This document shows, piece by piece, positions 11,130-63,195 of a stretch of 64,000 bases of DNA. The position numbers and the translations under genes were made by a program. Origin of the DNA: Candidatus Forterrea multitransposorum CG_2015-17_Forterrea_25_41 (GTDB taxonomy: Archaea; Iainarchaeota; Iainarchaeia; Iainarchaeales; CSSED10-239); assembly GCA_009392915.1 (NCBI GenBank), contig CP045477.1:64001-128000 (forward strand), given 5' to 3'. Each line of letters begins with the position of its first letter. The first letter of the stretch is position 1. The notes beneath the pieces are model-generated. The model was not told the origin of the DNA. It saw only the letters and a list, made by a program, of their open reading frames with translations, and ran no database searches.

Positions 11130-14100
11130 ATGAACTATAAATATTTTTTTGTATTTTTATTAGTAGTTTTATTTTCATCAATGGTATTTTCATACACAAT
11201 TGGTTTTGATTATGCTGAAGTTAGAACTACAAGTTATCCTAACTATCTTAATTATCAATATGCTCATTACTATGATAATATTGATCTAAGATATGGTGTT
11301 TATGGAAGTGGAATTTCTTCTCCAGTAACAATAATTGTTTCTCCAAAAGTTTATGGAATAACAACTACTGGTCAAAGAGTCTTTGTTCATAATATACAAA
11401 CTCATTCTTTTTCAATGAATCCTTCTTCTTTTTATACTTATAGTTATAATCCAATGTTTTCTTTTGATCCTGCATATCAAAGTTATGAAGTTGTTTTAGA
11501 TCTTCAAAGTTCAGATGGATCTTTTAATAATTCTGTAAGTAGATATGTTTATTCTCAAGGAACAAATCCAAACCCTGGAGGAGATGATCCTACAGGTGAT
11601 GATCCTAATGTAGTTAGTTGTGATGATTTTTATGTTTCAGGAATGGAAGATATTTATTTAGATGAAGATTCAAGAGAATATTATAATCTTTATTTAGTAA
11701 ATTCTGTTGACTTGCCACTTACAATAACTTCAGTTACAGTTTCTCCAAATAATCCTACTAACTTAGAAATTGAAGATATTACTTATCCTTTTACAGTTTC
11801 TGCTCTTCAAACAAGAAGTGCACAAATTGAACTTTTTACAGATACAGTTTCTTCTGATTATTCAAATAGTTTTCAAATAGAAGTTAAAGGTAAATATGAT
11901 AATTCTTTAACTTGTGAAAAAACATATAATGTTAATTATAGAATACTAGATGCTGAACTTGAAAATAATGGTTCTTGTAGTGATATAAGAATTTTAGATG
12001 ATTATTTTACAATGAGTGATAATTCTTCTAAAACTTTTGAAATTGAAGTTTCAAATGCTTCTCAAGATTATTATTTTGAAGTTGATGATATTGATTTAGA
12101 TACTACAAATGATTCAATAATTGAAGCTAGTGTTAGAAACACAATTGATAAAATATATACAGATTCTTCTAAAATTTTAAAAATAAATGTTTCTTCAGAT
12201 GACACTTCTTTTTATAGAACTGAAAAAATTGATTTAGAACTAACAGGTTATTTAAAAAGAGAAAACAGAGAAGATAAAAAATGTAGAATAAGAGAAGATG
12301 TTTCAATAAGAGTTTCTCCAGATTCTTCAACTGGAAATACTTCAAATGAATGTGATGATATAAAAATATATACAAGAGATGTTTTCCAAGATTCTCAAAT
12401 AACAGAAAACTACTCTCTTCAAGAGGGTTTTTATATTTATAATGGAACTAATAAAAAATTTACTGTATCAGGTATTAACTATAAAGACAATACTATGTAT
12501 GCAGATATCTTTTCAAAATCTTTTGATTATACTCTTTATCCTAGATCCTCTAATGCTTTAAATTTTGATATAAGAACAAGTGAAGTTTCAGAAAATAAAC
12601 TTTCAAATGCAGAAATTTCTATTCAAGGATATTTTGAAGGTGGACTTTCTTGTAGTTATTCAGATATAACTTCAAACTTTAATTTAACTATAAGAGAAGA
12701 AAATGATTTTTGTTCAAATGTAGGTATTTATGATGACAGTTTTGTTGAAGGTGAAAATTATTTTACAGTTTATAATAACACTAATAAAGACTTTACTGTA
12801 AATGATATTATTTCTCAAAATTCAGTTAACTCAAATGTAGGTGTGATTGATTCTTCTTTTAAAGTTTTAAAAGATTCACAAAAAACTTTTAGAGTTGGTT
12901 CTTCAGGAAATGGTAGTTTTGAGCTTTTAGCTAAAGGTGTTTTTTCAGATGGCACTTCTTGTGACTATACTCAAACAAGCAGTGGTTATTTCAATAGTGA
13001 TTCTGGTTATGATTTTTCAGATACTTCTTGTGAATTTGAATTTAATTATCCAAATGTAAAATATATCTCTTTAAACGGAGACTCTCTAAATTTTGATTTT
13101 AGAAACTTAACTGGAAAATCTGGTGAGATTAGACTTTCTGCAGTTGGTGCTGTAATTGAAGATCCAATTATTAAGTTTTCTTCATATTCATCTTTTAATA
13201 AAGAAATAGATCTTTTAAATATTAAAAATCCAAAAATGGTTCTTTATACAATTGAAATTTACGGTTGTTCTAAAAAATCATATTTTACAAATCTTTATCC
13301 TTTAGGAAATTCTATTCAAGGAGATGTTTCATTTTTAACATATCCTAGTAATTTAATTTCAACTAAAGATAAATTTATAAGTTCTTTTTCACTTAAAAAC
13401 TCAAGTAGTTTTTCAGAAGATGTTGAAATTAAATTTTCAGGTTTTACAAGTGCATTTAATTTTGTATCTTCTCCTTATCCATTAAACCCAAATACTTTCT
13501 CATCTTCAGATAATGTTTCAACAGTTACAATAAATCCAAACTCTACAAAAAATATTTATTTTGGAGTTGATGTTTTAGAAAATGCAGAATATAAAAAATA
13601 TAATGGATATATTGAAGTTTATAGTAATAATAAATTATTATTTAAAGAGCCTTTATCAATAGATAGATCAATTACTACTAATAATTTATTAGTAAATACT
13701 ATGGTTGAAAAGACATCTGTTAAAAATACTGTTCTTTTAACATTTACTTTTGAAAACAAATTACCTGACCTTACAAGAGAACTTTATTTATCTTTTGAAG
13801 ACGAGAATAGTTTTGAAGTAGATGGTAATAGAAATATATCTGTTGCACCATTAAGTGTACTTGAAAGAAGCTTTACTGTTAAATATAATGAAGGTTCTTT
13901 ATTTAAGTATAATTTAATAGATACAGATAATTCTTCTCTTGCATATTCTGGAGAAGTAGATTTAAAAGAAATTGATAATTCTTCAAATCTTTTATCTGGA
14001 TTTTTTACTCTTTCAGATACAAAAGGATTTATATTTGCAATTGTTCTTATATTACTTATAGCTTTAATTATTTTCTTAATAGTTTATGGAGATAAATCTA

Positions 14101-14273
14101 GAGCTAAAAGAAAACAAGAAACTAAATCAGTTTTAGAAACACAAGAAAAAATAAAAGAAGAAATTAGAAAAGATAATTTTTCTAATATTACTAAGTCTGA
14201 GATTATAATAGGAAATAAGCCTATTATAAAGCCTGCAGAACCAAGACAGATTACTTTAGGTGAGCTTGATTAA
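11130..14273 (+). CDS. large surface protein (1047 aa): signal peptide, five Cys-bracketed modules, TM anchor, charged tail
   Basis: N-terminal signal peptide. Repeat modules of about 110-125 aa each begin and end with a Cys (aa ~164-713). TM segment GFIFAIVLILLIALIIFLIV followed by an ~80-aa K/E-rich tail. Confidence 0.8.
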   Translation: MNYKYFFVFLLVVLFSSMVFSYTIGFDYAEVRTTSYPNYLNYQYAHYYDNIDLRYGVYGSGISSPVTIIVSPKVYGITTTGQRVFVHNIQTHSFSMNPSSFYTYSYNPMFSFDPAYQSYEVVLDLQSSDGSFNNSVSRYVYSQGTNPNPGGDDPTGDDPNVVSCDDFYVSGMEDIYLDEDSREYYNLYLVNSVDLPLTITSVTVSPNNPTNLEIEDITYPFTVSALQTRSAQIELFTDTVSSDYSNSFQIEVKGKYDNSLTCEKTYNVNYRILDAELENNGSCSDIRILDDYFTMSDNSSKTFEIEVSNASQDYYFEVDDIDLDTTNDSIIEASVRNTIDKIYTDSSKILKINVSSDDTSFYRTEKIDLELTGYLKRENREDKKCRIREDVSIRVSPDSSTGNTSNECDDIKIYTRDVFQDSQITENYSLQEGFYIYNGTNKKFTVSGINYKDNTMYADIFSKSFDYTLYPRSSNALNFDIRTSEVSENKLSNAEISIQGYFEGGLSCSYSDITSNFNLTIREENDFCSNVGIYDDSFVEGENYFTVYNNTNKDFTVNDIISQNSVNSNVGVIDSSFKVLKDSQKTFRVGSSGNGSFELLAKGVFSDGTSCDYTQTSSGYFNSDSGYDFSDTSCEFEFNYPNVKYISLNGDSLNFDFRNLTGKSGEIRLSAVGAVIEDPIIKFSSYSSFNKEIDLLNIKNPKMVLYTIEIYGCSKKSYFTNLYPLGNSIQGDVSFLTYPSNLISTKDKFISSFSLKNSSSFSEDVEIKFSGFTSAFNFVSSPYPLNPNTFSSSDNVSTVTINPNSTKNIYFGVDVLENAEYKKYNGYIEVYSNNKLLFKEPLSIDRSITTNNLLVNTMVEKTSVKNTVLLTFTFENKLPDLTRELYLSFEDENSFEVDGNRNISVAPLSVLERSFTVKYNEGSLFKYNLIDTDNSSLAYSGEVDLKEIDNSSNLLSGFFTLSDTKGFIFAIVLILLIALIIFLIVYGDKSRAKRKQETKSVLETQEKIKEEIRKDNFSNITKSEIIIGNKPIIKPAEPRQITLGELD

Positions 14274-36484: not shown

Positions 36485-36570
36485 AAAAATAAGTAAACCA
36501 TTTATATACTTTATGTTATATAATTTATAATATAATTATTTAAAATAAAAAATAAATTAAGGTGAATATT

Positions 36571-39531
36571 TTGATAAAAATAAAAAAAGGACAAATTTCT
36601 TTAGAAGCAATTATTATAATTGGTGTTATTGTTTTAGCAAGTATTATATTTGCGACATTCTATATTTCTAATGTTAATAAAAAAATAGATACTGCAAGTA
36701 ATCTAGATCCTAATTTTTCTGGAATGATTGGATCTGATGAAATGGGGTCAACTGATCCTATAACTATTGGTGAAGAACCAGGTCCAGGCCCAGGTCCAGG
36801 AGGAAGTACTTGTGGTGATAATATTATTGAAGGTACAGAAGATTGTGATGGTACTAATTTAGGTGGTGCTACATGTGAGTCTGAAGGTCAAGGTACAGGA
36901 GATTTATCTTGTAATTCAAATTGTACTTTTGATTATTCTGGTTGTTCTAGTCCAACAGCAAGTTATACAATAACTTCAAGTCATGGATCAAATGGAACTA
37001 TTTTTCCTTTAGGAGCTGTAACAGTTTTAGAAGGGGCAAGTAAAAAATTTAATTTGTATCCAAATGCAGGTTATGATGTAGATACTGTTTCAATTGATGG
37101 TGCAGAAGTTTCTCTTAGTGAAAGAAGAAGTTATACTTTTAATAATGTTACTTCCGGTCATACTATTCATGTAACTTTTAAACCTTATGCTTCAAATGAA
37201 CATATTATTTTTGCAAGTAGTGGTTCTCATGGAACCATAGATCCTGCAAGAAATAATACAGTTATAGAAGGAGATGATATTACTTTTACATTTAATCCAG
37301 ATACAGGATATCGTGTAGGTAATGTCTATATTGATGATACTACTGTTGGTTCAGAACAAATAGAGATTATTAATGATTTTTCTTCAAAAGATTCTGAAAA
37401 TAATAATTTATATTTTTCAGAAGAAGATGTTTTATATTTTGCATCTGATACAGGGACAGGTACTTCTTCAAATTTAGTTTATACTTTTGAAGATGTAGAT
37501 GATAGTCATACTATTCATGTAACTTTTATATCAAACACAACTCCTACATATACTTTAGAATATATTGCTGGAGCAAATGGTAGTATTTCTGGTCCAAATC
37601 CTCAAACTGTAAGTCAAGGAGAAGATGGTACAGAAGTATGTGCTGTTGCAGATGAAGGTTATGAATTTTTTAAATGGGATGATGATTATTATTCTGAATG
37701 TAGAACTGAAACAAATGTAACAAGTAATCAAACATATACTGTTATCTTTAATGAAAATGCAGGTCAAACAATGGCTATGAATTTAGAAGGTGTTGAATCA
37801 ACTCCAATAAATCAAAACTTTGATGTTGTTGTTAATACTTCTGAAACTCCAGGAACTGTAAGTTATGGTTTAGTTGCAGGATTATTAATTTATAATGATG
37901 TTGCAGGAGATTATTTGCCAACAAACAATTGTTCTTATAACGGAACTTTTGCTTCAAATCATACACTTGAAACAAATCAATCTCCAGGTATTGAAAATTA
38001 TACTTTTACATGTAATACTTCTGGAAACTATAAATTTACATTTACAGCAACAGATACAACTAACTCAACAAATGATGTTTCAAGAGATAAATTAATTACT
38101 GTTGTAAATAACCAAACAGCAGCACCAACATTTTCAATTGATGGAGGTACTTATTTTAATGATCAAACATTAACTTTAAGTTCAACAACTCCTAGTGCAA
38201 CTATAAAATACACAACTAATGGTACTATCCCAACTTGTACTACAGGAACAACTTATTCTCCTGCAAGTCCAATTCAAATTAATCAAATTTTAACAGTAAA
38301 AGCAATTGCTTGTAAATCTGGATATATTGATAGTCAAGTTGTTACAGAAATTTATAATTTAAAAGTTGGATATCCAGAACCAAGTGTTAATCCTGGTGTA
38401 TATTCTCAAGCACAGACAATTACTCTTTCAACAGAAACAATTGGTGCAACTTTGTATTATTCAACAGATGGTTCTGATGCTTTTGATGGAAGTGTTTACG
38501 TTCCAGGAGAAGAAATTATAATTTCAAAACCATATACTGAATTAAGAGTGGCAGGAGAAAAATCAAATTATAATGATAGTTCAGAATTTGATGAATATTA
38601 TTATATAAATGGTTATGAATCTCCAACTCCAAGTATGGTTTTTACAAATTATTATGGAGATGCATATAATCTTGTAGGTGCTGCAAATTTAACTCACTCA
38701 GATGTTTTCTTTGAAGATGAAGAAAATAATTTAGTAAGATTTGTTAATCCTAAATTAAATGGAGATTATTTTAACGGAAGTAATGCTTCAGGAGCTACAT
38801 TAATAGATTGTGAGGCATTTTGTTCTGAAAAGTATCTTGGAGGAACTTGTGATTCTTTTGATAAAACTAATTATTCTGGAAATGCAAATAATTTGATATA
38901 TTATAGAAATATGATTCCTGGTTCTGGTGGTGCAAATGATGTTTTCCCTTACACAATTGGGGGTGAGTTATCTAATTCTCCTCAATGGGCTTATGCTTCT
39001 GGAGCTATTGGTGGACCAGATAGAGTAGGATACTTCACTTGTGATTTTTCACACACCTCCAGTCCAGAAGATGCAGACTTTGGATTTATTGATTTATATA
39101 CTGAAGATTTATTATTAAATTATGGTGATCCATTTGATGGTACAGAATTCTATTATGATTCTTCAAGAGTAACTTTTGATAATGTTACAAAGTCTGGTTC
39201 AGAATATACTTATTCAGGTTTAAATGTTGTAGGTAATTTTGACACACCAGGCGCAACTGCTCCAACAGGAACAGTTTATATACTTTCAGATGATTTTTCA
39301 CAAGCTTGTGATGCTGTATGTGATGCTTTATATCAAGAAAGTTCTTGTGAAAATTATGATACAACAGATGTATATACTGCTAAAGGAGTTTCATATAATT
39401 ATTATCCTCCTGAATATGCAACAATATTTAATCCTAATTTAAGTACAGGTTATTATTGGACATCTGGAAGTCAACTTTTCTATGATGTTTGGTCAGAAGC
39501 TGTTCTTTCAGAAGTTACTTGTTCAAAGTAA
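36571..39531 (+). CDS. very large type IV pilin-like (class III signal peptide) adhesin-type protein
   Basis: The track start GTG at 36562 lies inside the AGGTGA SD, so the TTG at 36571 is the likely start. N-terminus IKIKKG/QISLEAIIIIGVIVLASIIF (KG|QxSxE plus hydrophobic helix). Then a GPGPGPGG linker, a CGDNxxExxEDCDG Cys-rich repeat, three beta-repeat modules (two ending HTIHVTF), and two chitobiase-C-like modules (APTFSIDGGTY..., EPSVNPGVY...). Confidence 0.75.
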   Translation: MIKIKKGQISLEAIIIIGVIVLASIIFATFYISNVNKKIDTASNLDPNFSGMIGSDEMGSTDPITIGEEPGPGPGPGGSTCGDNIIEGTEDCDGTNLGGATCESEGQGTGDLSCNSNCTFDYSGCSSPTASYTITSSHGSNGTIFPLGAVTVLEGASKKFNLYPNAGYDVDTVSIDGAEVSLSERRSYTFNNVTSGHTIHVTFKPYASNEHIIFASSGSHGTIDPARNNTVIEGDDITFTFNPDTGYRVGNVYIDDTTVGSEQIEIINDFSSKDSENNNLYFSEEDVLYFASDTGTGTSSNLVYTFEDVDDSHTIHVTFISNTTPTYTLEYIAGANGSISGPNPQTVSQGEDGTEVCAVADEGYEFFKWDDDYYSECRTETNVTSNQTYTVIFNENAGQTMAMNLEGVESTPINQNFDVVVNTSETPGTVSYGLVAGLLIYNDVAGDYLPTNNCSYNGTFASNHTLETNQSPGIENYTFTCNTSGNYKFTFTATDTTNSTNDVSRDKLITVVNNQTAAPTFSIDGGTYFNDQTLTLSSTTPSATIKYTTNGTIPTCTTGTTYSPASPIQINQILTVKAIACKSGYIDSQVVTEIYNLKVGYPEPSVNPGVYSQAQTITLSTETIGATLYYSTDGSDAFDGSVYVPGEEIIISKPYTELRVAGEKSNYNDSSEFDEYYYINGYESPTPSMVFTNYYGDAYNLVGAANLTHSDVFFEDEENNLVRFVNPKLNGDYFNGSNASGATLIDCEAFCSEKYLGGTCDSFDKTNYSGNANNLIYYRNMIPGSGGANDVFPYTIGGELSNSPQWAYASGAIGGPDRVGYFTCDFSHTSSPEDADFGFIDLYTEDLLLNYGDPFDGTEFYYDSSRVTFDNVTKSGSEYTYSGLNVVGNFDTPGATAPTGTVYILSDDFSQACDAVCDALYQESSCENYDTTDVYTAKGVSYNYYPPEYATIFNPNLSTGYYWTSGSQLFYDVWSEAVLSEVTCSK

Positions 39532-54380: not shown

Positions 54381-57300
54381 ATGAAAAATAAGATACTAAT
54401 AATTTTTTTATTTACAATTTTACTTTCAACTTTTATTTTTTCAGATCCTGTTGTAAAGATAAATGATAATTTAACAACATATACAAACAGTGATTCTGAA
54501 AACTTCTATGTTGAAGTAAGTAATACTGGAGATAATTGTGAAGTTGAATCTGATTTTATAAGTATTAATTTAAGTTCAGATGCAGCAAGTTCTTTTCCAT
54601 ATTTAATATACTGTAATCTTGAAAGAAATTATAGTGGTTATTTTTCAGTAGATTTTTCAACAAACACACCAACACCTCCAATACCAAATGTTTTAGTTAA
54701 TAATGAAGATACTGTTATTGCAGACTATAATGGGTTTACTGCTAATTTAGTAGTTGACACAATAAATACTATAACAGGAACTTTTGATTTAAATTCTGTT
54801 GATTCAGTTGTAAATAATTACTATAAAGGAGATGTTGAAGTTACTTCTTTAAGTTCTTTTTCAGATGCACATTCTGGTTTAAAAGAATATTACATTTATA
54901 TTGTTGAAGTTGATTCAGTAAATGACTATAGAGATGATTATTATAAGAGATTAATTGTAGATGTTAATGAAACTTCTATTGATTTAGGTACATCTACAAC
55001 TGTTTCTGATGGAAATTATTTTGTTTTAGTTGAAGCTTTAGATTATGCTGAAAATCTTGCAATACCTTCTCAAGTAATTTTAAATAAAAAAAATATGTAT
55101 GTTGATAATACAGCACCTCAAGTAACTTCTTTTAGTTTAGGAAGTTTTTCAGAAGGTACAACTTATTATGTTCCTTCAACAACTACTACTTTGACTTTAT
55201 TAATTGAAGATGATGGTGTAGGGGTAAGGAATGAACCTCTATATACACAAATAGATAGAGATAGTGTAAAGTTAGCAGATTATAATTCTATATTAGGCGG
55301 TTTCTTTTTTGATTTTACAACAGTTGATTATGATATTGATGGTTCATATGAGCTTGCAGCAACAGATCTTTTAGGTAATTTAAATGAAAAAACATTTTCA
55401 ATAATGATAGATGAAACTTCTCCAACAACTCCAACAATTTCAACAGTTACAAGAGCTGTAGATAATAATGTTACAATTTCAAATTGGGGTACTTCAACTG
55501 ATTCTGGAAGTGGTTTAAAAGAATACAAAGTCTATAGGTCAACTTCTTCTTTTACAGAAGTTTCAAATCAAGATTTAATTTGTACAGTTTCTGCAGCTGC
55601 TTCAAAAACTTGTCTTGATTCAACTTCAAAATCAGATGATACAAGATATTATTATGGTGTTACTGCAGTTGATAATGCAGGAAATAATAGTCCAGTTGTA
55701 ACTGCAAGCATAAAAACAGGTCCTGAACTTGATATTTATATTGATTTAGAAGATTCTGATTTTGTAAATACTGTTACTCCAGAGATAACTTTAGAGTATG
55801 GTTCTGATGTTAATGCTGTTAGATTTAGTTGTAATGCTTCAACTTTTACATCATGGGTTGAAGTTTCGGGAACTTCTGAGGTTTATGAAAGTTTTAATGT
55901 AACTTCTGGAAATGGATGTAATACAGATCAAGGAGATAAAATAATTTATGTTGAAGCAAGAAGTGAAGACGATCCTTATCTTATTACTAGAGAATCTTTT
56001 GAGTTTGAACTTGATTCAAAAGCACCAACAATACCTAGTAACATAGAAGTTTTAGAACAAGCAAATGGTTCTTTAAATATTTCTTGGACAAGCTCAACAG
56101 ATGTAAATGGTAGTGGTCTTGAAGAATACAGGATTTATTATTCAGAATCTGAGTCAGTTTCTAAATCCTCACAATATATGACTTCTTCAGATGAAGAGTA
56201 TATTTTTAATCCTAATGAAGATAAAACATTTTATTTTAAAATATCTGCAATTGATGAAGCATTAAATGAATCTGATCTTTCATCTATTGCTTCTGGAACT
56301 GCAAAAAGATTTGGACCTTCTTTTACTTTTAATGCAAGCCCAAAAAATTTAATTGATGATGTTTATTATTTAAAAAAAGGAAATGTTTTATTTACTATTA
56401 CAAGTAGTGAAGAATTAAAACAAACACCTATTATTAGACTTAAAATTGGTAATTCACCTTATAAATCAATTTCTGCAATTTATAGTAATTTAATTACAAC
56501 TTTTAATTATTCTTTAGAAGAAAGTGGAGATTCAATTTTAGAAATTACAGGTACAAATAATAATAATGAAACAACAACTGATACTTTTAATTTTATAGTA
56601 GATGCAGAAGTTCCAACTTTTACTGCTGACTATAATTTCTTTGAAGATACTAAATTATATGAATTTAAAATAAGTGATTTTTCAGATGATGTTTTCAGAG
56701 TTCAATATTTATTTAATAATGTTGAAGAAGTTTGTTTTATTGAAGATTCAAATAACAATTATCTTTGTTCACTTGATTCTACTCTTTATAAAGATGGTAA
56801 TCATAAAATGTATGTTTTAGTTTATGATAGAGCATTAAATTATGAAACTGAAATTATTTCTTTTGAAATAGATAATGTTGATGAAGCTTTAATTTTAAAA
56901 GAAAATTTAGTTGCTGAAATTAATACAAATATTTTTACAATTGAAGATAGAATTTCTTTCCTTCAAGCAATCTCTTTAGAAGTTTCTCAAGATGTTTTAG
57001 ATAAATTTTCTGAAGCTAAAGAAAAAGTTGTTCTTGCAAAATCTCTAGAAGATTCAAATAATTTTTCAGAAGCTGTAAATACTTATACTTCTGTAAATAA
57101 TTCTTTACTTGAGATATTAGAAGTTTTACCTACAGAAAATGTTTTAAAAACAAAAACTATTGAAATTGATCTTTTAGATAATTCTTTTGATCTTAATACA
57201 GTTATTTTGGATCAAAATATATTAACTGATAATTTGTCTTTTTATGATGTTAATAATCAAGACCTAAATTTTATATCAGTTTCAAGAGAATTTAGTGTTT

Positions 57301-57959
57301 TTGAAGTATCTGGTCAAAACTTTTATTCTAGTAATTTAATTTTTGTAAATGACTCTAATGTAGATAAAGTAATTTCTTTTATTGAAGTAATACCTAAAGA
57401 ATTTGAAAAATCTTCAGATAATATTTATTTTGATAGAAATATTGTTGTAATTGATAAAGATCCAATAATTCTTTATAATTTAGTAATTCCTAAAAATTCT
57501 TCTCTTACAACAAAATATATTAGTCAAACAGCAATTACAAGTTTTGATATTTTAACTAAATTTGATGCAATTGTTTACAAGTCTCCTCTTCTTTTAACTG
57601 GATCTGTAAATTTAGAAGATTTAAATTTTGAAAAACCTTTAATTGATAGTAAATCTTTATTTATGATAGCAGTTGTTCTTTTAATAATAATTATCTTACT
57701 TTTAGTAATCTGGATGGTGGCTTCTGGTCGTAAGAAAAAAGAAGATGTCTTTAAAGAAATGGAACCTAAGGATGCTATGAATAAATATCTTGGAAATAAA
57801 CTAAATAGTAATTCTCAAGAAAAATCTTCAACTGATTCTTCTTCATCTAAAACTTTAGAAGAAAAAGAAGAAGAGCATAAAAGTGATCTTGAAAAGAAAA
57901 AGAAGTATGATAGTAATTATGAGTTTATTTTAGATGCTGTTAAAAGAAGTAATAAATAA
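54381..57959 (+). CDS. large surface protein (1192 aa) with FN3-like modules, C-proximal TM and long charged tail
   Basis: Signal peptide. Recurrent SGL(K/E)EY.(I/V)Y...(Y/F)Y....A.D.A.N modules (three seen). TM LFMIAVVLLIIIILLLVIWMV followed by an ~100-aa K/E/S-rich tail. Confidence 0.8.
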   Translation: MKNKILIIFLFTILLSTFIFSDPVVKINDNLTTYTNSDSENFYVEVSNTGDNCEVESDFISINLSSDAASSFPYLIYCNLERNYSGYFSVDFSTNTPTPPIPNVLVNNEDTVIADYNGFTANLVVDTINTITGTFDLNSVDSVVNNYYKGDVEVTSLSSFSDAHSGLKEYYIYIVEVDSVNDYRDDYYKRLIVDVNETSIDLGTSTTVSDGNYFVLVEALDYAENLAIPSQVILNKKNMYVDNTAPQVTSFSLGSFSEGTTYYVPSTTTTLTLLIEDDGVGVRNEPLYTQIDRDSVKLADYNSILGGFFFDFTTVDYDIDGSYELAATDLLGNLNEKTFSIMIDETSPTTPTISTVTRAVDNNVTISNWGTSTDSGSGLKEYKVYRSTSSFTEVSNQDLICTVSAAASKTCLDSTSKSDDTRYYYGVTAVDNAGNNSPVVTASIKTGPELDIYIDLEDSDFVNTVTPEITLEYGSDVNAVRFSCNASTFTSWVEVSGTSEVYESFNVTSGNGCNTDQGDKIIYVEARSEDDPYLITRESFEFELDSKAPTIPSNIEVLEQANGSLNISWTSSTDVNGSGLEEYRIYYSESESVSKSSQYMTSSDEEYIFNPNEDKTFYFKISAIDEALNESDLSSIASGTAKRFGPSFTFNASPKNLIDDVYYLKKGNVLFTITSSEELKQTPIIRLKIGNSPYKSISAIYSNLITTFNYSLEESGDSILEITGTNNNNETTTDTFNFIVDAEVPTFTADYNFFEDTKLYEFKISDFSDDVFRVQYLFNNVEEVCFIEDSNNNYLCSLDSTLYKDGNHKMYVLVYDRALNYETEIISFEIDNVDEALILKENLVAEINTNIFTIEDRISFLQAISLEVSQDVLDKFSEAKEKVVLAKSLEDSNNFSEAVNTYTSVNNSLLEILEVLPTENVLKTKTIEIDLLDNSFDLNTVILDQNILTDNLSFYDVNNQDLNFISVSREFSVFEVSGQNFYSSNLIFVNDSNVDKVISFIEVIPKEFEKSSDNIYFDRNIVVIDKDPIILYNLVIPKNSSLTTKYISQTAITSFDILTKFDAIVYKSPLLLTGSVNLEDLNFEKPLIDSKSLFMIAVVLLIIIILLLVIWMVASGRKKKEDVFKEMEPKDAMNKYLGNKLNSNSQEKSSTDSSSSKTLEEKEEEHKSDLEKKKKYDSNYEFILDAVKRSNK

Positions 57960-61271: not shown

Positions 61272-61562
61272 ATGACTAGCGAAAATGGATCTGTTGAAAC
61301 AAATATAATATATATTGGTAAAAAAGTAACAATGTCTTATGTTTTAGCAGTAATAACTCAATTTAACCAAGGTGCAGAAAGTGTTGTTATTAAAGCAAGA
61401 GGTAAAACAATATCAAAAGCAGTTGATGTTTCTGAGATTGTGAAAAATAAATTTGTAAATACTTTAAGAGTTGAAAAAATAAATATTTCTACAGAAGAGA
61501 TAACAACTGAAAACAATACCCCTATGAAAGTTTCTGCAATTGAAATTATACTTGCAAAGTAA
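61272..61562 (+). CDS. albA: DNA/RNA-binding protein Alba
   Basis: NIIYIGKK..MSYVLAVITQFNQGAESVVIKARGK.ISKAVDV.EIV.N.F. Confidence 0.9.
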   Translation: MTSENGSVETNIIYIGKKVTMSYVLAVITQFNQGAESVVIKARGKTISKAVDVSEIVKNKFVNTLRVEKINISTEEITTENNTPMKVSAIEIILAK

Positions 61563-61566
61563 ATTT

Positions 61567-63015
61567 CTAATTAACTATTAGTTTTGGTATTGGTAAGTTT
61601 AATTGAGGAAAATAATTATTTATTTTCTCAATAATTTTTTTTTCTTTTACAATTACTTTTTCTTTGTCTATTAAATATTTATTTTCATTTACATCTATTT
61701 TCTTAATGGTTTCAAGCTTCAAATATTTTATTGATTGAGCAAGTAAAGAATCATAAAACTTAGTATTTTTATGTTCTATAAACTTAGGTATCTCTTCAAT
61801 AAGGTCATTTATAAGTTTGTATTCTGTTAGATATTGTATAAACATAGGATTTTGTTCTAAATTGTTCTTGAAAGAATAATTATAGTTAAAAGAATTACTT
61901 AAATTTATAGAAGTTTCTAAATATTTTAATCTCTTTAAATATTCTTTTATTTTAATAGATAAGAAAGATTCTTTCTTTAAACAATACCATTTGATTTCAT
62001 CTAAGTTATCAATTATTTCAATTTCTTCTTCTGAAACTAAATTTACTGCATCTATTAAAGGAATACTTGCAAAATCTCCTTTGTAAAAAGGTCCTGTTGG
62101 CATTTCTTTTAAACCATTATTTTTTTTGAAATTAATTCTATTTTCTTTATTTATATTCTCTTGATGGAATTGTTCATATGCCCATTTTTGATCTTTTGAA
62201 ATAAAATAGAATCCTTGTTTTTTAAATCTTACTTTAACAATTGAATTTGATAAAACATTTATATCTAAATAGTTTTTTGGTTTACAACAATCACAATTTA
62301 AAGTATCATGCCCTATATTGTAAAAATCTTTTGTTAAAAGATATGGCCAGATATTTGAAAAATCCATTTTAATTCCTTGTCTTATGTTTTTTTCTTTTTC
62401 TAAGTATTCTATACTAATTTTATTGTTTAGCATCATTTTATTTTCAAAATATAAGTTTTCAAAGAAATTATTTAAAATTTCTTGATTATTAATATTTTTA
62501 ATTTTTATTTTTAATATGTTACTTAAAAGTAGTTTTTTAGTTAAGTTTTCAATTAACTTTAATTGCTCTTCTTTTAAGAAAGGATTTATATATTTTTTAA
62601 CAATTGAACTTATATTGTTATTTTCTATTTTTTTAATTCTTGTTTTTGAAACAATTATAAATAAATCATAATAACTCCATTCTTTCTCAATTAAATACTC
62701 TCTTTCAATATCTAAGATTAATATGTTTTTAGAAGTAGATATAGATAATATTTTATAAATCTTATTTAATGTTTCTTTATTTTTTGCAATTACTTTAATT
62801 TTATTTTTTTCAATTTTTTCTATATTTACTTCTCTTTTAAAATCAGATAATAGCTTTTGTACTACTTCTTTTGGAAGGTCAATATAAAAATAAGGGTTAA
62901 ATTTTTCCTTATAAACAAAATCATACTTATTGCTATAAGGATCTTTTGAAAAATAGCTTATAATTCTTTGTTTTTCTTCTTCATACACGCATTCTGTTAA
63001 ATATAGTTGTTCCAT
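61567..63015 (-). CDS. hypothetical protein with degenerate family-B DNA polymerase-like motifs
   Basis: 482 aa. FNPYFYI (aa 39-45), DFSNIWPYLL...GHDTLN (aa 218-240, motif A-like), NLSNSFNYNY (aa 371-380, motif B-like), KIDVNE (aa 439-444, at the motif C position). No exonuclease motifs recognised. Confidence 0.4.
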   Translation of the reverse strand: MEQLYLTECVYEEEKQRIISYFSKDPYSNKYDFVYKEKFNPYFYIDLPKEVVQKLLSDFKREVNIEKIEKNKIKVIAKNKETLNKIYKILSISTSKNILILDIEREYLIEKEWSYYDLFIIVSKTRIKKIENNNISSIVKKYINPFLKEEQLKLIENLTKKLLLSNILKIKIKNINNQEILNNFFENLYFENKMMLNNKISIEYLEKEKNIRQGIKMDFSNIWPYLLTKDFYNIGHDTLNCDCCKPKNYLDINVLSNSIVKVRFKKQGFYFISKDQKWAYEQFHQENINKENRINFKKNNGLKEMPTGPFYKGDFASIPLIDAVNLVSEEEIEIIDNLDEIKWYCLKKESFLSIKIKEYLKRLKYLETSINLSNSFNYNYSFKNNLEQNPMFIQYLTEYKLINDLIEEIPKFIEHKNTKFYDSLLAQSIKYLKLETIKKIDVNENKYLIDKEKVIVKEKKIIEKINNYFPQLNLPIPKLIVN

Positions 63016-63195
63016 AATCTATTCACTTAATTTTCACAAATATTATAAATAATCTAAAAAGTTGGCAGTTCTTTTTAGGTTATCTTTAAAGGCAATATAT
63101 AATTAGATTGTATAAAATATATCTCTTTTCAAGGGGGGTACTTGGCCGAGAAAGATAATCTTTTAGTTTAAAAATAGTTCTCTCCATTATTTCTA

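What the first reader, a model, noticed from the sequence alone, without database searches (positions are those of the whole stretch)
61567..63015. 482-aa protein with recognisable but degenerate family-B DNA polymerase motifs, lacking exonuclease and thumb regions
I compared the protein with Thermococcales PolB motifs from memory.
- aa 39-45 FNPYFYI resembles the N-terminal-domain F(R)PY(I/F)Y strand.
- aa 218-240 DFSNIWPYLLTKDFYNIGHDTLN parallels motif A and its flank (DFxSLYPSII..HN.SPDTLN).
- aa 371-380 NLSNSFNYNY parallels motif B (KxxxNSxYG). The Lys position is Ile and YG becomes NY.
- aa 439-444 KIDVNE sits where YxDTD (motif C) would be.
Only ~100 aa separate the N-terminal region from motif A, where a ~200-aa 3'-5' exonuclease domain would be expected. 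I saw no DxE / NxxxFD / YxxxD motifs. Only ~40 aa follow the motif C position, so there is no thumb. This looks like a miniaturised, probably inactivated PolB derivative. Inactivated PolB homologues are known in archaea, but this truncated form next to Alba may be a distinct family.
Basis: inference. Interest (0 to 1): 0.62.

Follow-up and report, generated by a model that had tools for sequence, protein, structure and literature searches.

The report
Miniature inactivated family-B polymerase paralogue
This gene encodes a stripped-down, almost certainly catalytically dead relative of the archaeal replicative DNA polymerase; it is conserved across one phylum of tiny archaea, carries a new cysteine-stapled insertion, and in distant relatives sits beside DNA-break-repair genes.

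Summary

The PolB N-terminal domain, palm and fingers are present. The roughly 195-aa exonuclease domain is reduced to a hairpin, and the KxY strand and thumb are absent. Its motif A assignment is right. Its motif B and motif C assignments are misplaced, and neither position is conserved.

Across about 160 sequence clusters, essentially all from Iainarchaeota (DPANN), no polymerase catalytic residue is invariant. The invariant residues are C241, C243, C244, C345, R293, G308 and P309. The cysteines bracket an ~84-100-aa insertion at the site of the KOD C428-C442 disulfide hairpin.

In all 11 loci of the divergent subfamily the gene lies downstream of nurA-herA, and in 10 it is followed by convergent rad50. 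The window's own clade has lost this linkage and keeps only convergent Alba.

Best reading: a non-catalytic, metal-stapled DNA-binding or scaffold pseudo-polymerase, possibly working in end resection and recombinational repair. It is an undescribed variant of a known kind.

The parts
61567..63015 (-). Complete ORF, 482 aa plus stop: PolB-derived pseudo-polymerase
62680..63015 (-). Residues 1-112: PolB N-terminal domain, first part. Includes F39-x-P41-Y strand (P41 invariant) and E104-R105-x-x-L108, equivalent to KOD K118-R119-Y-L.
   Evidence: hhalign of residues 1-48 aligns to KOD 1-47 in the expected register, though weakly (E 0.0046). The whole model aligns 346 residues and the 205-482 fragment only 171, so about 175 aligned residues come from the N-terminal half. 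Weak PHROG hit phrog_403 'DNA polymerase exonuclease subunit' over residues 59-126.
62614..62679 (-). Residues 113-134: beta-hairpin (W113-S-Y-Y-D117-x-F119), all that remains where the ~195-aa 3'-5' exonuclease domain should be
   Evidence: Secondary structure E118-123/E126-131. D117 is kept in 42/52 members, F119 in 50/52, and there is no DxE. Assigning it as an Exo I strand remnant is inference.
62404..62613 (-). Residues 135-204: helical second part of the N-terminal domain (LSNxL...ExFLENxFF) plus a low-confidence linker (residues 201-210)
   Evidence: hhalign aligns residues 162-191 to KOD 331-365. Helices H135-143, H148-168 and H177-191.
62296..62376 (-). Residues 214-240: motif A strand and helix and its flank (xxDFSNIWPYLL..FYNIGHDTLN). 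D218 is equivalent to KOD D404.
   Evidence: hhalign. tblastn with KOD picks out this segment in the window and four loci, though not significantly. D218 is D in 41/52 members.
62278..62295 (-). Residues 241-246: C241-x-C243-C244-K-P, three cysteines at the N-terminal base of the insertion. C244 is equivalent to KOD C428.
   Evidence: Invariant in 52 diverse members. C243 is Asp in four close paralogous sequences. Mapping.
61990..62277 (-). Residues 247-342: lineage-specific insertion domain in the palm. Contains N253, S258, H284, K290, invariant R293, G308-P309, and D322 (51/52). Has no counterpart in PolB profiles from about residue 259.
61966..61989 (-). Residues 343-350: W343-x-C345-K-K-E-S, the fourth cysteine at the C-terminal base of the insertion. 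C345 is equivalent to KOD C442.
   Evidence: C345 invariant, W343 in 51/52. Mapping.
61774..61965 (-). Residues 351-414: fingers, two long antiparallel helices. The motif-B-equivalent stretch (~403-414) lacks K/N/Y/G and is poorly conserved.
   Evidence: H351-380 and H390-414. Aligned to KOD 448-498. Column composition.
61570..61773 (-). Residues 415-482: C-terminal palm. Helix 423-440, motif-C hairpin 447-456 (Y-L-I-D450-K-E452-K-V-I-V), helix 460-471, final strand 478-480. The chain ends before KxY and the thumb.
   Evidence: hhalign maps D450 to KOD D540 and E452 to KOD D542. Neither position is conserved in the family. Secondary structure.
61272..61562 (+). Alba gene, convergent with the ORF, stop codons 4 nt apart. 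It is syntenic in the window's subfamily only and is not part of the feature's mechanism.
   Evidence: Pfam Alba E 8.6e-20. In 23 of the 26 loci of the >=42% identity subfamily Alba lies within 820 nt downstream of the gene; it is 2.4 kb away in L014, was not found in L010, and L031 has no downstream sequence. It is absent from the 9 divergent loci.
63133..63154 (+). Conserved GC-rich element AGGGGGGTAnnTGGCCGAGAAA in the upstream intergenic region, about 118 nt from the start codon. Role unknown: possibly a promoter or regulatory site, or the 5' end of a divergent transcript.
   Evidence: Found with <=3 mismatches in L004-L007, L012 and L028. Recognisable in 9 aligned upstream regions. No Rfam or tRNA hit.

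Best explanation
The ORF encodes a pseudo-polymerase: a paralogue of archaeal family-B DNA polymerase, conserved across Iainarchaeota.

Shown:
- It keeps the N-terminal domain, the palm core and the two-helix fingers.
- It has lost the 3'-5' exonuclease domain, the KxY strand and the thumb.
- It has lost family-wide conservation of the catalytic motifs.
- Selection acts instead on a 3+1 cysteine cluster (C241, C243, C244 and C345). This cluster closes the base of an ~84-100-residue insertion, which sits where Thermococcales PolBs have a short hairpin closed by the C428-C442 disulfide.
- Selection also acts on polar and basic residues inside that insertion (R293, K290, H284, D322, N253).

Inferred:
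- The cysteines bind a structural metal (Zn or Fe-S).
- The protein does not synthesise DNA. It uses the remaining template-binding cleft plus the new basic insertion to bind DNA or partner proteins as a non-catalytic subunit.
- The ancestral gene order nurA-herA-X with convergent rad50 suggests the partner machinery is the HerA-NurA/Rad50 end-resection and recombinational-repair or fork-restart system.
For: Fold:
- The top 50 Foldseek hits listed are all PolBs.

Sequence:
- hhalign against a diverse PolB profile gives Prob 92.9%, E 3.7e-7, with motif A, fingers and the motif C hairpin in PolB order.

Loss of domains:
- The chain is 482 aa against ~775 for KOD.
- Secondary structure and the alignment leave no room for an exonuclease domain or thumb.
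- No family member exceeds 546 aa.

Inactivation:
- Motif A Asp is kept in 41 of 52 members. Motif C positions 450 and 452 are variable. There is no motif B.

Selection:
- dN/dS is 0.04-0.08.
- Invariant residues are C241, C243, C244, C345, R293, G308, P309 and P41.

Context:
- 9 of 9 divergent genome loci have herA 87-1299 nt upstream on the same strand and rad50 461-652 nt downstream, convergent. nurA is upstream of herA in 7 of them.
- Two further distant metagenomic members also have herA upstream on the same strand: 74 nt away in L035, and 2.3 kb away with four ORFs between in L036. L036 also has a convergent SMC/Rad50-like gene downstream.
- In 10 loci of the window's subfamily herA is still 2.7-5.3 kb away on the same strand.
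Against: - The window's own gene, and its nearest relatives L004-L009, have no herA, nurA or rad50 within the available flanks (6-8 kb on each side for L004, L006, L007 and L009). For the window, none is found in the 61 kb on its 3' side.
- The linkage could be inherited synteny within one phylum rather than a functional coupling. In six of the eleven divergent loci unrelated ORFs lie between herA and X.
- The window protein itself retains D218, D450 and E452 at the three metal-ligand positions, so residual catalysis in this clade is not formally excluded.
- Metal binding, DNA binding and any protein partner are untested.
- I had no atomic coordinates, so Cys-Cys proximity is inferred from the alignment to the KOD disulfide pair, not measured.
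Confidence: 0.55

Rival explanations
1. It is a replisome scaffold. The inactive PolB paralogue binds the active replicative polymerase (PolD or PolB) or the CMG helicase and plays a structural role in replication. This is what was proposed for the inactivated archaeal PolB family, and what the inactive C-terminal half of Pol epsilon is known to do.
For: It shares the general logic of conserved inactive PolB paralogues (PMC2527604; PMC7544198). It is under strong purifying selection and is conserved phylum-wide in reduced genomes. The window clade shows no repair-gene linkage.
Against: No replication gene (MCM, GINS, PCNA, PolD, PolB) is seen next to it in any of 37 loci. The only recurrent DNA-metabolism neighbours are herA, nurA and rad50.
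Confidence: 0.2
2. It is a neo-functionalised enzyme. The conserved insertion (H284, D322, N253, R293, K290, with the Cys-bound metal nearby) forms a new active site, for example a nuclease that substitutes for the Mre11 not seen next to rad50 in these genomes.
For: The most conserved residues are in or around the insertion, not in the polymerase site. In the divergent loci X occupies the position after herA and beside rad50. No Mre11-like ORF (GNH[DE]) occurs in any locus, and rad50 follows EF-1beta instead.
Against: There is no similarity of the insertion to any known nuclease or other fold. Mre11 could be encoded elsewhere, and whole genomes could not be searched. The conserved residues could equally be structural or DNA-binding.
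Confidence: 0.12
3. It is still an active, minimal DNA polymerase in this clade, because the window protein keeps acidic residues at the motif A and motif C positions (D218, D450, E452).
For: hhalign places D218 at KOD D404, D450 at D540 and E452 at D542. In the close subfamily, position 452 is E or D in 25 of 31 members and D218 is D in 29 of 31.
Against: There are no motif B residues for dNTP binding, no KxY motif and no thumb to hold the primer-template. The same positions are freely substituted in the rest of the family while the fold and Cys cluster stay invariant. No PolB of this size is known to be active (my knowledge).
Confidence: 0.08
4. The motif resemblance is chance in an AT-rich, low-complexity protein and there is no PolB homology.
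For: Pfam, NCBIfam, PDB-sequence and profile-versus-PDB searches return nothing. A first hhalign against a shallow PolB alignment gave only 55% probability.
Confidence: 0.02

Closest known systems
Canonical archaeal family-B DNA polymerases (PolB1/PolB3; e.g. S. solfataricus Dpo1 1s5j, P. calidifontis 5mdn, Thermococcus KOD)
   Same: Same N-terminal domain, palm topology and two-helix fingers. Motif A and its flank are recognisable at sequence level (DFSxxW..L..NxGxxTxN against DFRSLYPSII..HNVSPDTLN). C244 and C345 sit at the positions of the KOD C428-C442 disulfide pair.
   Different: No exonuclease domain, no KxY strand and no thumb. Motifs B and C are absent or unconserved. An ~84-100-aa insertion replaces a 13-residue hairpin. 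It is about 300 aa shorter. Pfam PolB models do not detect it.
Inactivated archaeal PolB family (PolB2 group; Rogozin et al. 2008, PMC2527604; Makarova et al. 2014)
   Same: A conserved archaeal PolB paralogue with disrupted catalytic motifs, thought to be non-catalytic or structural.
   Different: According to the paper, that family keeps high overall sequence similarity to PolBs and both domain modules (exonuclease and polymerase), and conserves the distal Asp of motif C. It has since been argued to be active (PMC7544198). The present family has deleted whole domains, has no conserved motif C Asp, has a Cys4 cluster and insertion, and is restricted to Iainarchaeota.
Pol epsilon catalytic core P-domain with CysX [4Fe-4S] motif (yeast Pol2 C665/C668/C677 + C763; PMC6582351)
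   Same: Three cysteines at the N-terminal end and one at the C-terminal end of a ~90-100-aa insertion in the palm, between motif A and the fingers. The first Cys is 23 residues after the motif A Asp here and 25 in Pol2. The Pol2 motif A Asp numbering (D640) is from my memory; the Cys numbering is.
Other exapted inactive PolBs (Pol epsilon C-terminal module; chordopoxvirus F12; polinton/PLV helicase-inactive pDNAP fusions)
   Same: Precedents for a PolB fold retained without catalysis and reused as a scaffold or binding module (titles and abstracts; PMC7544198).
   Different: Different lineages, different retained domains and different partners. None of those I reviewed is described as linked to herA-nurA-rad50 or as carrying this Cys cluster.

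Membership tests
Family-B DNA polymerase (structural superfamily) | N-terminal domain + palm + fingers fold, collinear with solved PolBs | tested here: met
Family-B DNA polymerase (active enzyme) | Motif A DxxSLYPS with invariant catalytic Asp | tested here: inconclusive
   The window protein has D218-F-S-N-I-W-P-Y. Across the family Asp is kept in 41/52, otherwise N, S, E or P.
Family-B DNA polymerase (active enzyme) | Motif B KxxxNSxYG in the second finger helix | tested here: not met
   The equivalent stretch, ~403-414, is INDLIEEIPKFIE, with no K, N, Y or G and poor conservation.
Family-B DNA polymerase (active enzyme) | Motif C YxDTD with conserved catalytic Asp | tested here: not met
   The hairpin at 447-456 reads YLIDKEKVIV in the window. 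Positions 450 and 452 are variable in the family, with no residue above 9/52 and 7/52 respectively.
Family-B DNA polymerase (active enzyme) | 3'-5' exonuclease domain with Exo I/II/III motifs | tested here: not met
   Only residues 113-134 lie between the two parts of the N-terminal domain. There is no DxE, NxxxFD or YxxxD. No Pfam PF03104 hit.
Family-B DNA polymerase (active enzyme) | KxY motif and thumb domain | tested here: not met
   The chain ends at residue 482, equivalent to about KOD 580. The longest family member is 546 aa.
Inactivated archaeal PolB (PolB2) family of Rogozin et al. 2008 | Full-length PolB architecture, readily detectable PolB sequence similarity, distal motif C Asp conserved | tested here: not met
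   No Pfam PolB hit in any of 31 members. Domains are deleted. No conserved motif C Asp. Family description.
Pol epsilon-type P-domain with CysX Fe-S motif | 3+1 cysteines bracketing a palm insertion between motif A and the fingers | tested here: met
   C241, C243 and C244 before and C345 after the insertion are invariant in 52 members. Pol2 arrangement from PMC6582351.
Pol epsilon-type P-domain with CysX Fe-S motif | Insertion structurally similar to the Pol epsilon P-domain | tested here: not met
Pol epsilon-type P-domain with CysX Fe-S motif | Binds a [4Fe-4S] cluster | not testable with these tools
   Needs purified protein (UV-vis, EPR or ICP-MS).
Archaeal HerA-NurA / Mre11-Rad50 end-resection gene module | Conserved gene neighbourhood with herA, nurA and rad50 | tested here: inconclusive
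   Met in the 11 loci of the divergent subfamily: herA is upstream on the same strand in all 11, and convergent rad50 is downstream in 10. herA is 2.7-5.3 kb away in 10 loci of the window's subfamily. None is present in the window or its closest relatives.
Archaeal HerA-NurA / Mre11-Rad50 end-resection gene module | Physical or functional interaction with HerA, NurA or Rad50 | not tested

The most novel reading that the evidence does not exclude
The Cys4-stapled pseudo-polymerase is a dedicated, previously unknown subunit of the Iainarchaeota HerA-NurA/Rad50 end-processing machine and takes the place of Mre11. Mre11 is not seen next to rad50 in any locus. The new insertion domain would either bind DNA ends or carry a new metal-dependent active site. 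If so, a replicative-polymerase fold would have been exapted into double-strand-break repair, and a Pol epsilon-like 3+1 Cys staple would have arisen independently in archaea.
Probability: 0.12. Interest if true: 0.8.

Novelty: new variant of a known kind. Interest (0 to 1): 0.6.

Why it matters
Inactive copies of replicative polymerases are rare. Where they have been understood, as with the C-terminal half of Pol epsilon, they turned out to be essential architectural parts of DNA machines.

This family is the most reduced PolB derivative I could find evidence for. No curated model detects it, and every source that names it calls it a hypothetical protein. It is nevertheless conserved under strong selection across a whole DPANN phylum with very small genomes.

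It shows which parts of the PolB fold can be kept alone: the N-terminal domain, palm and fingers. It identifies the hairpin after motif A as a recurrent insertion and metal-staple site, seen as the KOD disulfide, the Pol epsilon CysX/P-domain, and this family's cluster. It also offers a testable link between a polymerase fold and the HerA-NurA-Rad50 repair system.

On the practical side, it provides a seed alignment for a new protein family model.

Tried and rejected
- **Sequence-family searches.** Pfam, NCBIfam, PADLOC, phmmer against PDB and the family profile against PDB gave no usable hit. PHROGs gave one weak hit, phrog_403, E 0.007.
- **First hhalign.** Against a shallow Thermococcales-only PolB alignment it gave 55% probability. 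It also gave a different register after motif A, with WxC345 aligned to KOD W504-Y-C506 and the fingers placed at 276-299. I rejected this register after adding E. coli Pol II and four viral PolBs. The score then rose to 93% and the order fingers, palm helix, motif C hairpin, helix, strand matched the predicted secondary structure.
- **afdb50 fold search.** The library was unavailable.
- **Canonical PolB nearby.** tblastn with KOD found no canonical PolB in the window or in 34 related loci fetched to that point (459 kb). It found only the motif A segment of this family.
- **herA, nurA and rad50 in the window.** None was found.
- **Mre11-like ORFs in the loci.** None was found by a motif regex, which is a crude test.
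- **Broad alignment A2 for locus retrieval.** It was too divergent for the search for related loci, so I used A1.
- **Upstream GC-rich element as a tRNA half or known RNA.** No ARAGORN or Rfam hit.
- **Literature searches.** Searches for an exonuclease-less or HerA-linked PolB-like protein in DPANN found nothing.
Full report
**Observation**

The four quoted peptides are at the stated residue numbers. The window is extremely AT-rich (GC 19-30%). Chance ORFs and chance 'motifs' are therefore a real concern, but this is a genuine gene:
- 38 homologues at 42-95% identity have almost identical length.
- An exhaustive HMMER scan of 1.84 billion representatives finds 159 clusters, none longer than 546 aa.
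- dN/dS is 0.04 against the 95%-identical orthologue and 0.08 against a 69% orthologue.

Sources that name it call it a hypothetical protein. Record titles place nearly all genomic copies in 'Candidatus Iainarchaeum' or 'ainarchaeum' MAGs, phylum Iainarchaeota, DPANN.

**Is it a PolB derivative?**

Ordinary sequence methods say nothing. There is no Pfam, NCBIfam or PADLOC family. There is no PDB hit with the sequence or the family profile, and no PolB Pfam hit in any of 31 members.

Structure is unambiguous:
- An AlphaFold2 model built on the family alignment is confident (pLDDT 85.9, pTM 0.85).
- The top 50 Foldseek hits listed against the PDB are all family-B polymerases, at E of about 3e-7 and probability 1.0.

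At profile level, a shallow Thermococcales-only PolB alignment gave 55% probability. After adding E. coli Pol II and four viral PolBs, hhalign gives 92.9% probability, E 3.7e-7, over family residues 162-474 against KOD 331-569.

**Anatomy**

I combined the hhalign register with the predicted secondary structure.
- **Residues 1-112 and 135-204** form the PolB N-terminal domain. The FxPY strand aligns to KOD F34-E-P-Y in the right register, though weakly. The LSNxL...ExFLENxFF helices align to KOD 331-365.
- **Residues 113-134** are only a beta-hairpin (W-S-Y-Y-D117-x-F) where KOD has its ~195-residue exonuclease domain. No Exo I-III motif exists.
- **Residues 214-240** are motif A and its flank, with D218 equivalent to KOD D404. 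This segment is similar enough that tblastn with KOD picks it out, non-significantly, in five different loci.
- **C241-x-C243-C244** come next. They are followed by a stretch (about 259-342 in the alignment) with no PolB counterpart, then W343-x-C345.
- **C244 and C345** fall on KOD C428 and C442. From my knowledge of the KOD structure, those two form a disulfide closing a short hairpin.
- **Helices 351-380 and 390-414** are the fingers.
- **The remaining palm:** helix 423-440 is the palm helix. The hairpin 447-456 is the motif C hairpin, with D450 equivalent to D540 and E452 to D542. Helix 460-471 and strand 478-480 finish the palm.
- **The chain ends** before the KxY strand, and there is no thumb.

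Its 'motif B' (371-380) actually lies in finger helix 1. Its 'motif C' (439-444) is the end of the palm helix, eight residues before the true hairpin.

**What is conserved**

I examined 52 members spanning 18-69% identity to the window protein.
- Invariant residues: P41, C241, C243, C244, R293, G308, P309 and C345.
- Near-invariant residues: D322 (51/52), W343, N233, N253, H284 and K290.
- The motif A Asp is kept in only 41/52.
- The motif C positions and the motif-B-equivalent stretch show no conservation.

Selection is therefore acting on the fold, on a 3+1 cysteine cluster, and on the insertion that the cluster brackets. It is not acting on the polymerase active site. This is the signature of a pseudo-enzyme with a structural metal.

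The window protein itself does keep D218, D450 and E452. I therefore list residual activity as a low-probability rival. The absence of motif B, KxY and a thumb argues strongly against it.

**The insertion and the Pol epsilon parallel**

Pol epsilon has a P-domain inserted in the palm. Its base is stapled by the CysX [4Fe-4S] motif, three cysteines at the N-terminal end and one at the C-terminal end. The authors state that this motif is absent from all other known polymerases (PMC6582351; PMC7544198).

**Genomic context**

In the window the gene is monocistronic. It is convergent with Alba, with stop codons 4 nt apart, and Alba is preceded by a cysteine desulfurase gene. This arrangement recurs in most loci of the >=42% identity subfamily: Alba lies within 820 nt downstream in 23 of 26. 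Convergent genes cannot be co-transcribed, and the arrangement is absent from the rest of the family.

I clustered all ORFs of 35 sequence sets (34 related loci plus the window's 3' end) and annotated the recurrent neighbours.
- In all nine divergent genome loci (19-32% identity) the order is nurA (seen in 7 of the 9), herA, X on one strand. herA ends 87-1299 nt upstream of X. A convergent rad50 follows 461-652 nt downstream.
- Two further distant metagenomic members also have herA upstream on the same strand: 74 nt away in L035, and 2.3 kb away with four ORFs between in L036. L036 also has a convergent SMC/Rad50-like gene downstream.
- In ten loci of the window's own subfamily herA (there carrying an intein) is still 2.7-5.3 kb away on the same strand.
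- The window and its closest relatives have lost the linkage. No herA, nurA or rad50 is found anywhere in the 64 kb window.
- No Mre11-like ORF lies beside rad50 in any locus (a crude test).

**Mechanism proposed**

- Shown: the PolB fold, the domain losses, the loss of catalytic conservation, the invariant Cys cluster and insertion, purifying selection, and the herA/nurA/rad50 neighbourhood in half the family.
- Inferred: the cysteines bind a structural metal that staples the insertion. The protein binds DNA or partner proteins through the retained N-terminal-domain/palm/fingers cleft and the basic insertion (R293, K290). It acts as a non-catalytic subunit, most likely with the HerA-NurA/Rad50 end-resection and recombination system.

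I put about 0.9 on 'inactive PolB-derived protein with a metal-stapled insertion'. I put about 0.4 on the repair-module association being functional. That gives 0.55 for the combined statement. The rivals are a replisome scaffold (0.2), a new catalytic activity in the insertion, possibly replacing Mre11 (0.12), a still-active minimal polymerase (0.08), and chance resemblance (0.02, refuted).

**Comparison with what is known**

Inactivated PolB paralogues are known. Examples are the archaeal PolB2 family (PMC2527604), the C-terminal module of Pol epsilon, poxvirus F12, and the polinton/PLV fusions. The published survey of PolB diversity lists no archaeal group lacking the exonuclease and thumb domains. 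It states that P-domain and CysX are unique to Pol epsilon.

The present family fails the membership tests for active PolB: motifs B and C, the exonuclease domain and the thumb. It also fails those for the PolB2 family: full architecture, detectable sequence similarity and the distal Asp. Five literature searches found no description of it.

I class it as a new variant of a known kind: a new, highly reduced family of PolB-derived pseudo-polymerases.

**Limits**

- I had no atomic coordinates, so Cys proximity and the shape of the insertion are inferred.
- Whole genomes could not be searched. Co-occurrence with canonical PolB or PolD, and the presence or absence of Mre11, remain open. PolD is reported as widespread in DPANN, including Diapherotrites (PMC6355029).
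- The herA linkage may partly reflect inherited synteny within one phylum.

Noticed in passing
window 63133-63154 (+); also L004, L005, L006, L007, L012, L028 about 110-130 nt upstream of the orthologous gene: A GC-rich element AGGGGGGTAnnTGGCCGAGAAA, preceded by a TATAT box, is conserved in the otherwise divergent AT-rich intergenic region upstream of the gene, on the opposite strand. It gives no tRNA or Rfam hit. It could be a regulatory site or the 5' end of a small divergent transcript.
   Followed up: partly
window 11130-14273 (+): A 1047-aa ORF has no Pfam and no NCBIfam match, making it a large orphan protein in a reduced genome.
   Followed up: no
L023-L027, L032, L034 (e.g. L026 8025-10064 and 10142-10399, minus strand): In divergent Iainarchaeota loci the rad50 gene has no adjacent mre11. 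In seven of the nine it directly follows the EF-1beta gene on the same strand (L029 and L033 lack EF-1beta). No Mre11-like ORF was found within 6-8 kb.
   Followed up: partly
L001 12508-15012, L011 10623-13136 and relatives: The herA gene of this subgroup is ~835 aa because it carries an intein with a LAGLIDADG endonuclease (Pfam Intein_splicing, LAGLIDADG_3, DUF87). The herA of the divergent loci is ~510-530 aa and has no intein.
   Followed up: no
L012 and L022, ~100-250 nt upstream of the orthologous gene: An extra ~150-nt insert, GC-richer than its surroundings and containing an imperfect hairpin (GATGAT..GGCAG.CCA.ATCATC), is shared by these two loci only. It may be a small mobile element or an RNA.
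   Followed up: no
L033 (JAGVNS010000122.1, titled 'Thaumarchaeota archaeon DeMMO3_24'): This is the only locus not labelled as Iainarchaeota or as an unclassified archaeon. It nevertheless has the same nurA-herA-X-rad50 arrangement, so the record title is probably a binning or taxonomy error rather than evidence that the family occurs in Thaumarchaeota.
   Followed up: no
window 54381-57959 (+) and 36562-39531 (+): These are large secreted or surface-type proteins (1192 aa with a Big_13 Ig-like domain; 989 aa with a class III signal peptide, InlB B-repeat and CHB_HEX_C domains). They are typical of DPANN cell-surface repertoires.
   Followed up: no
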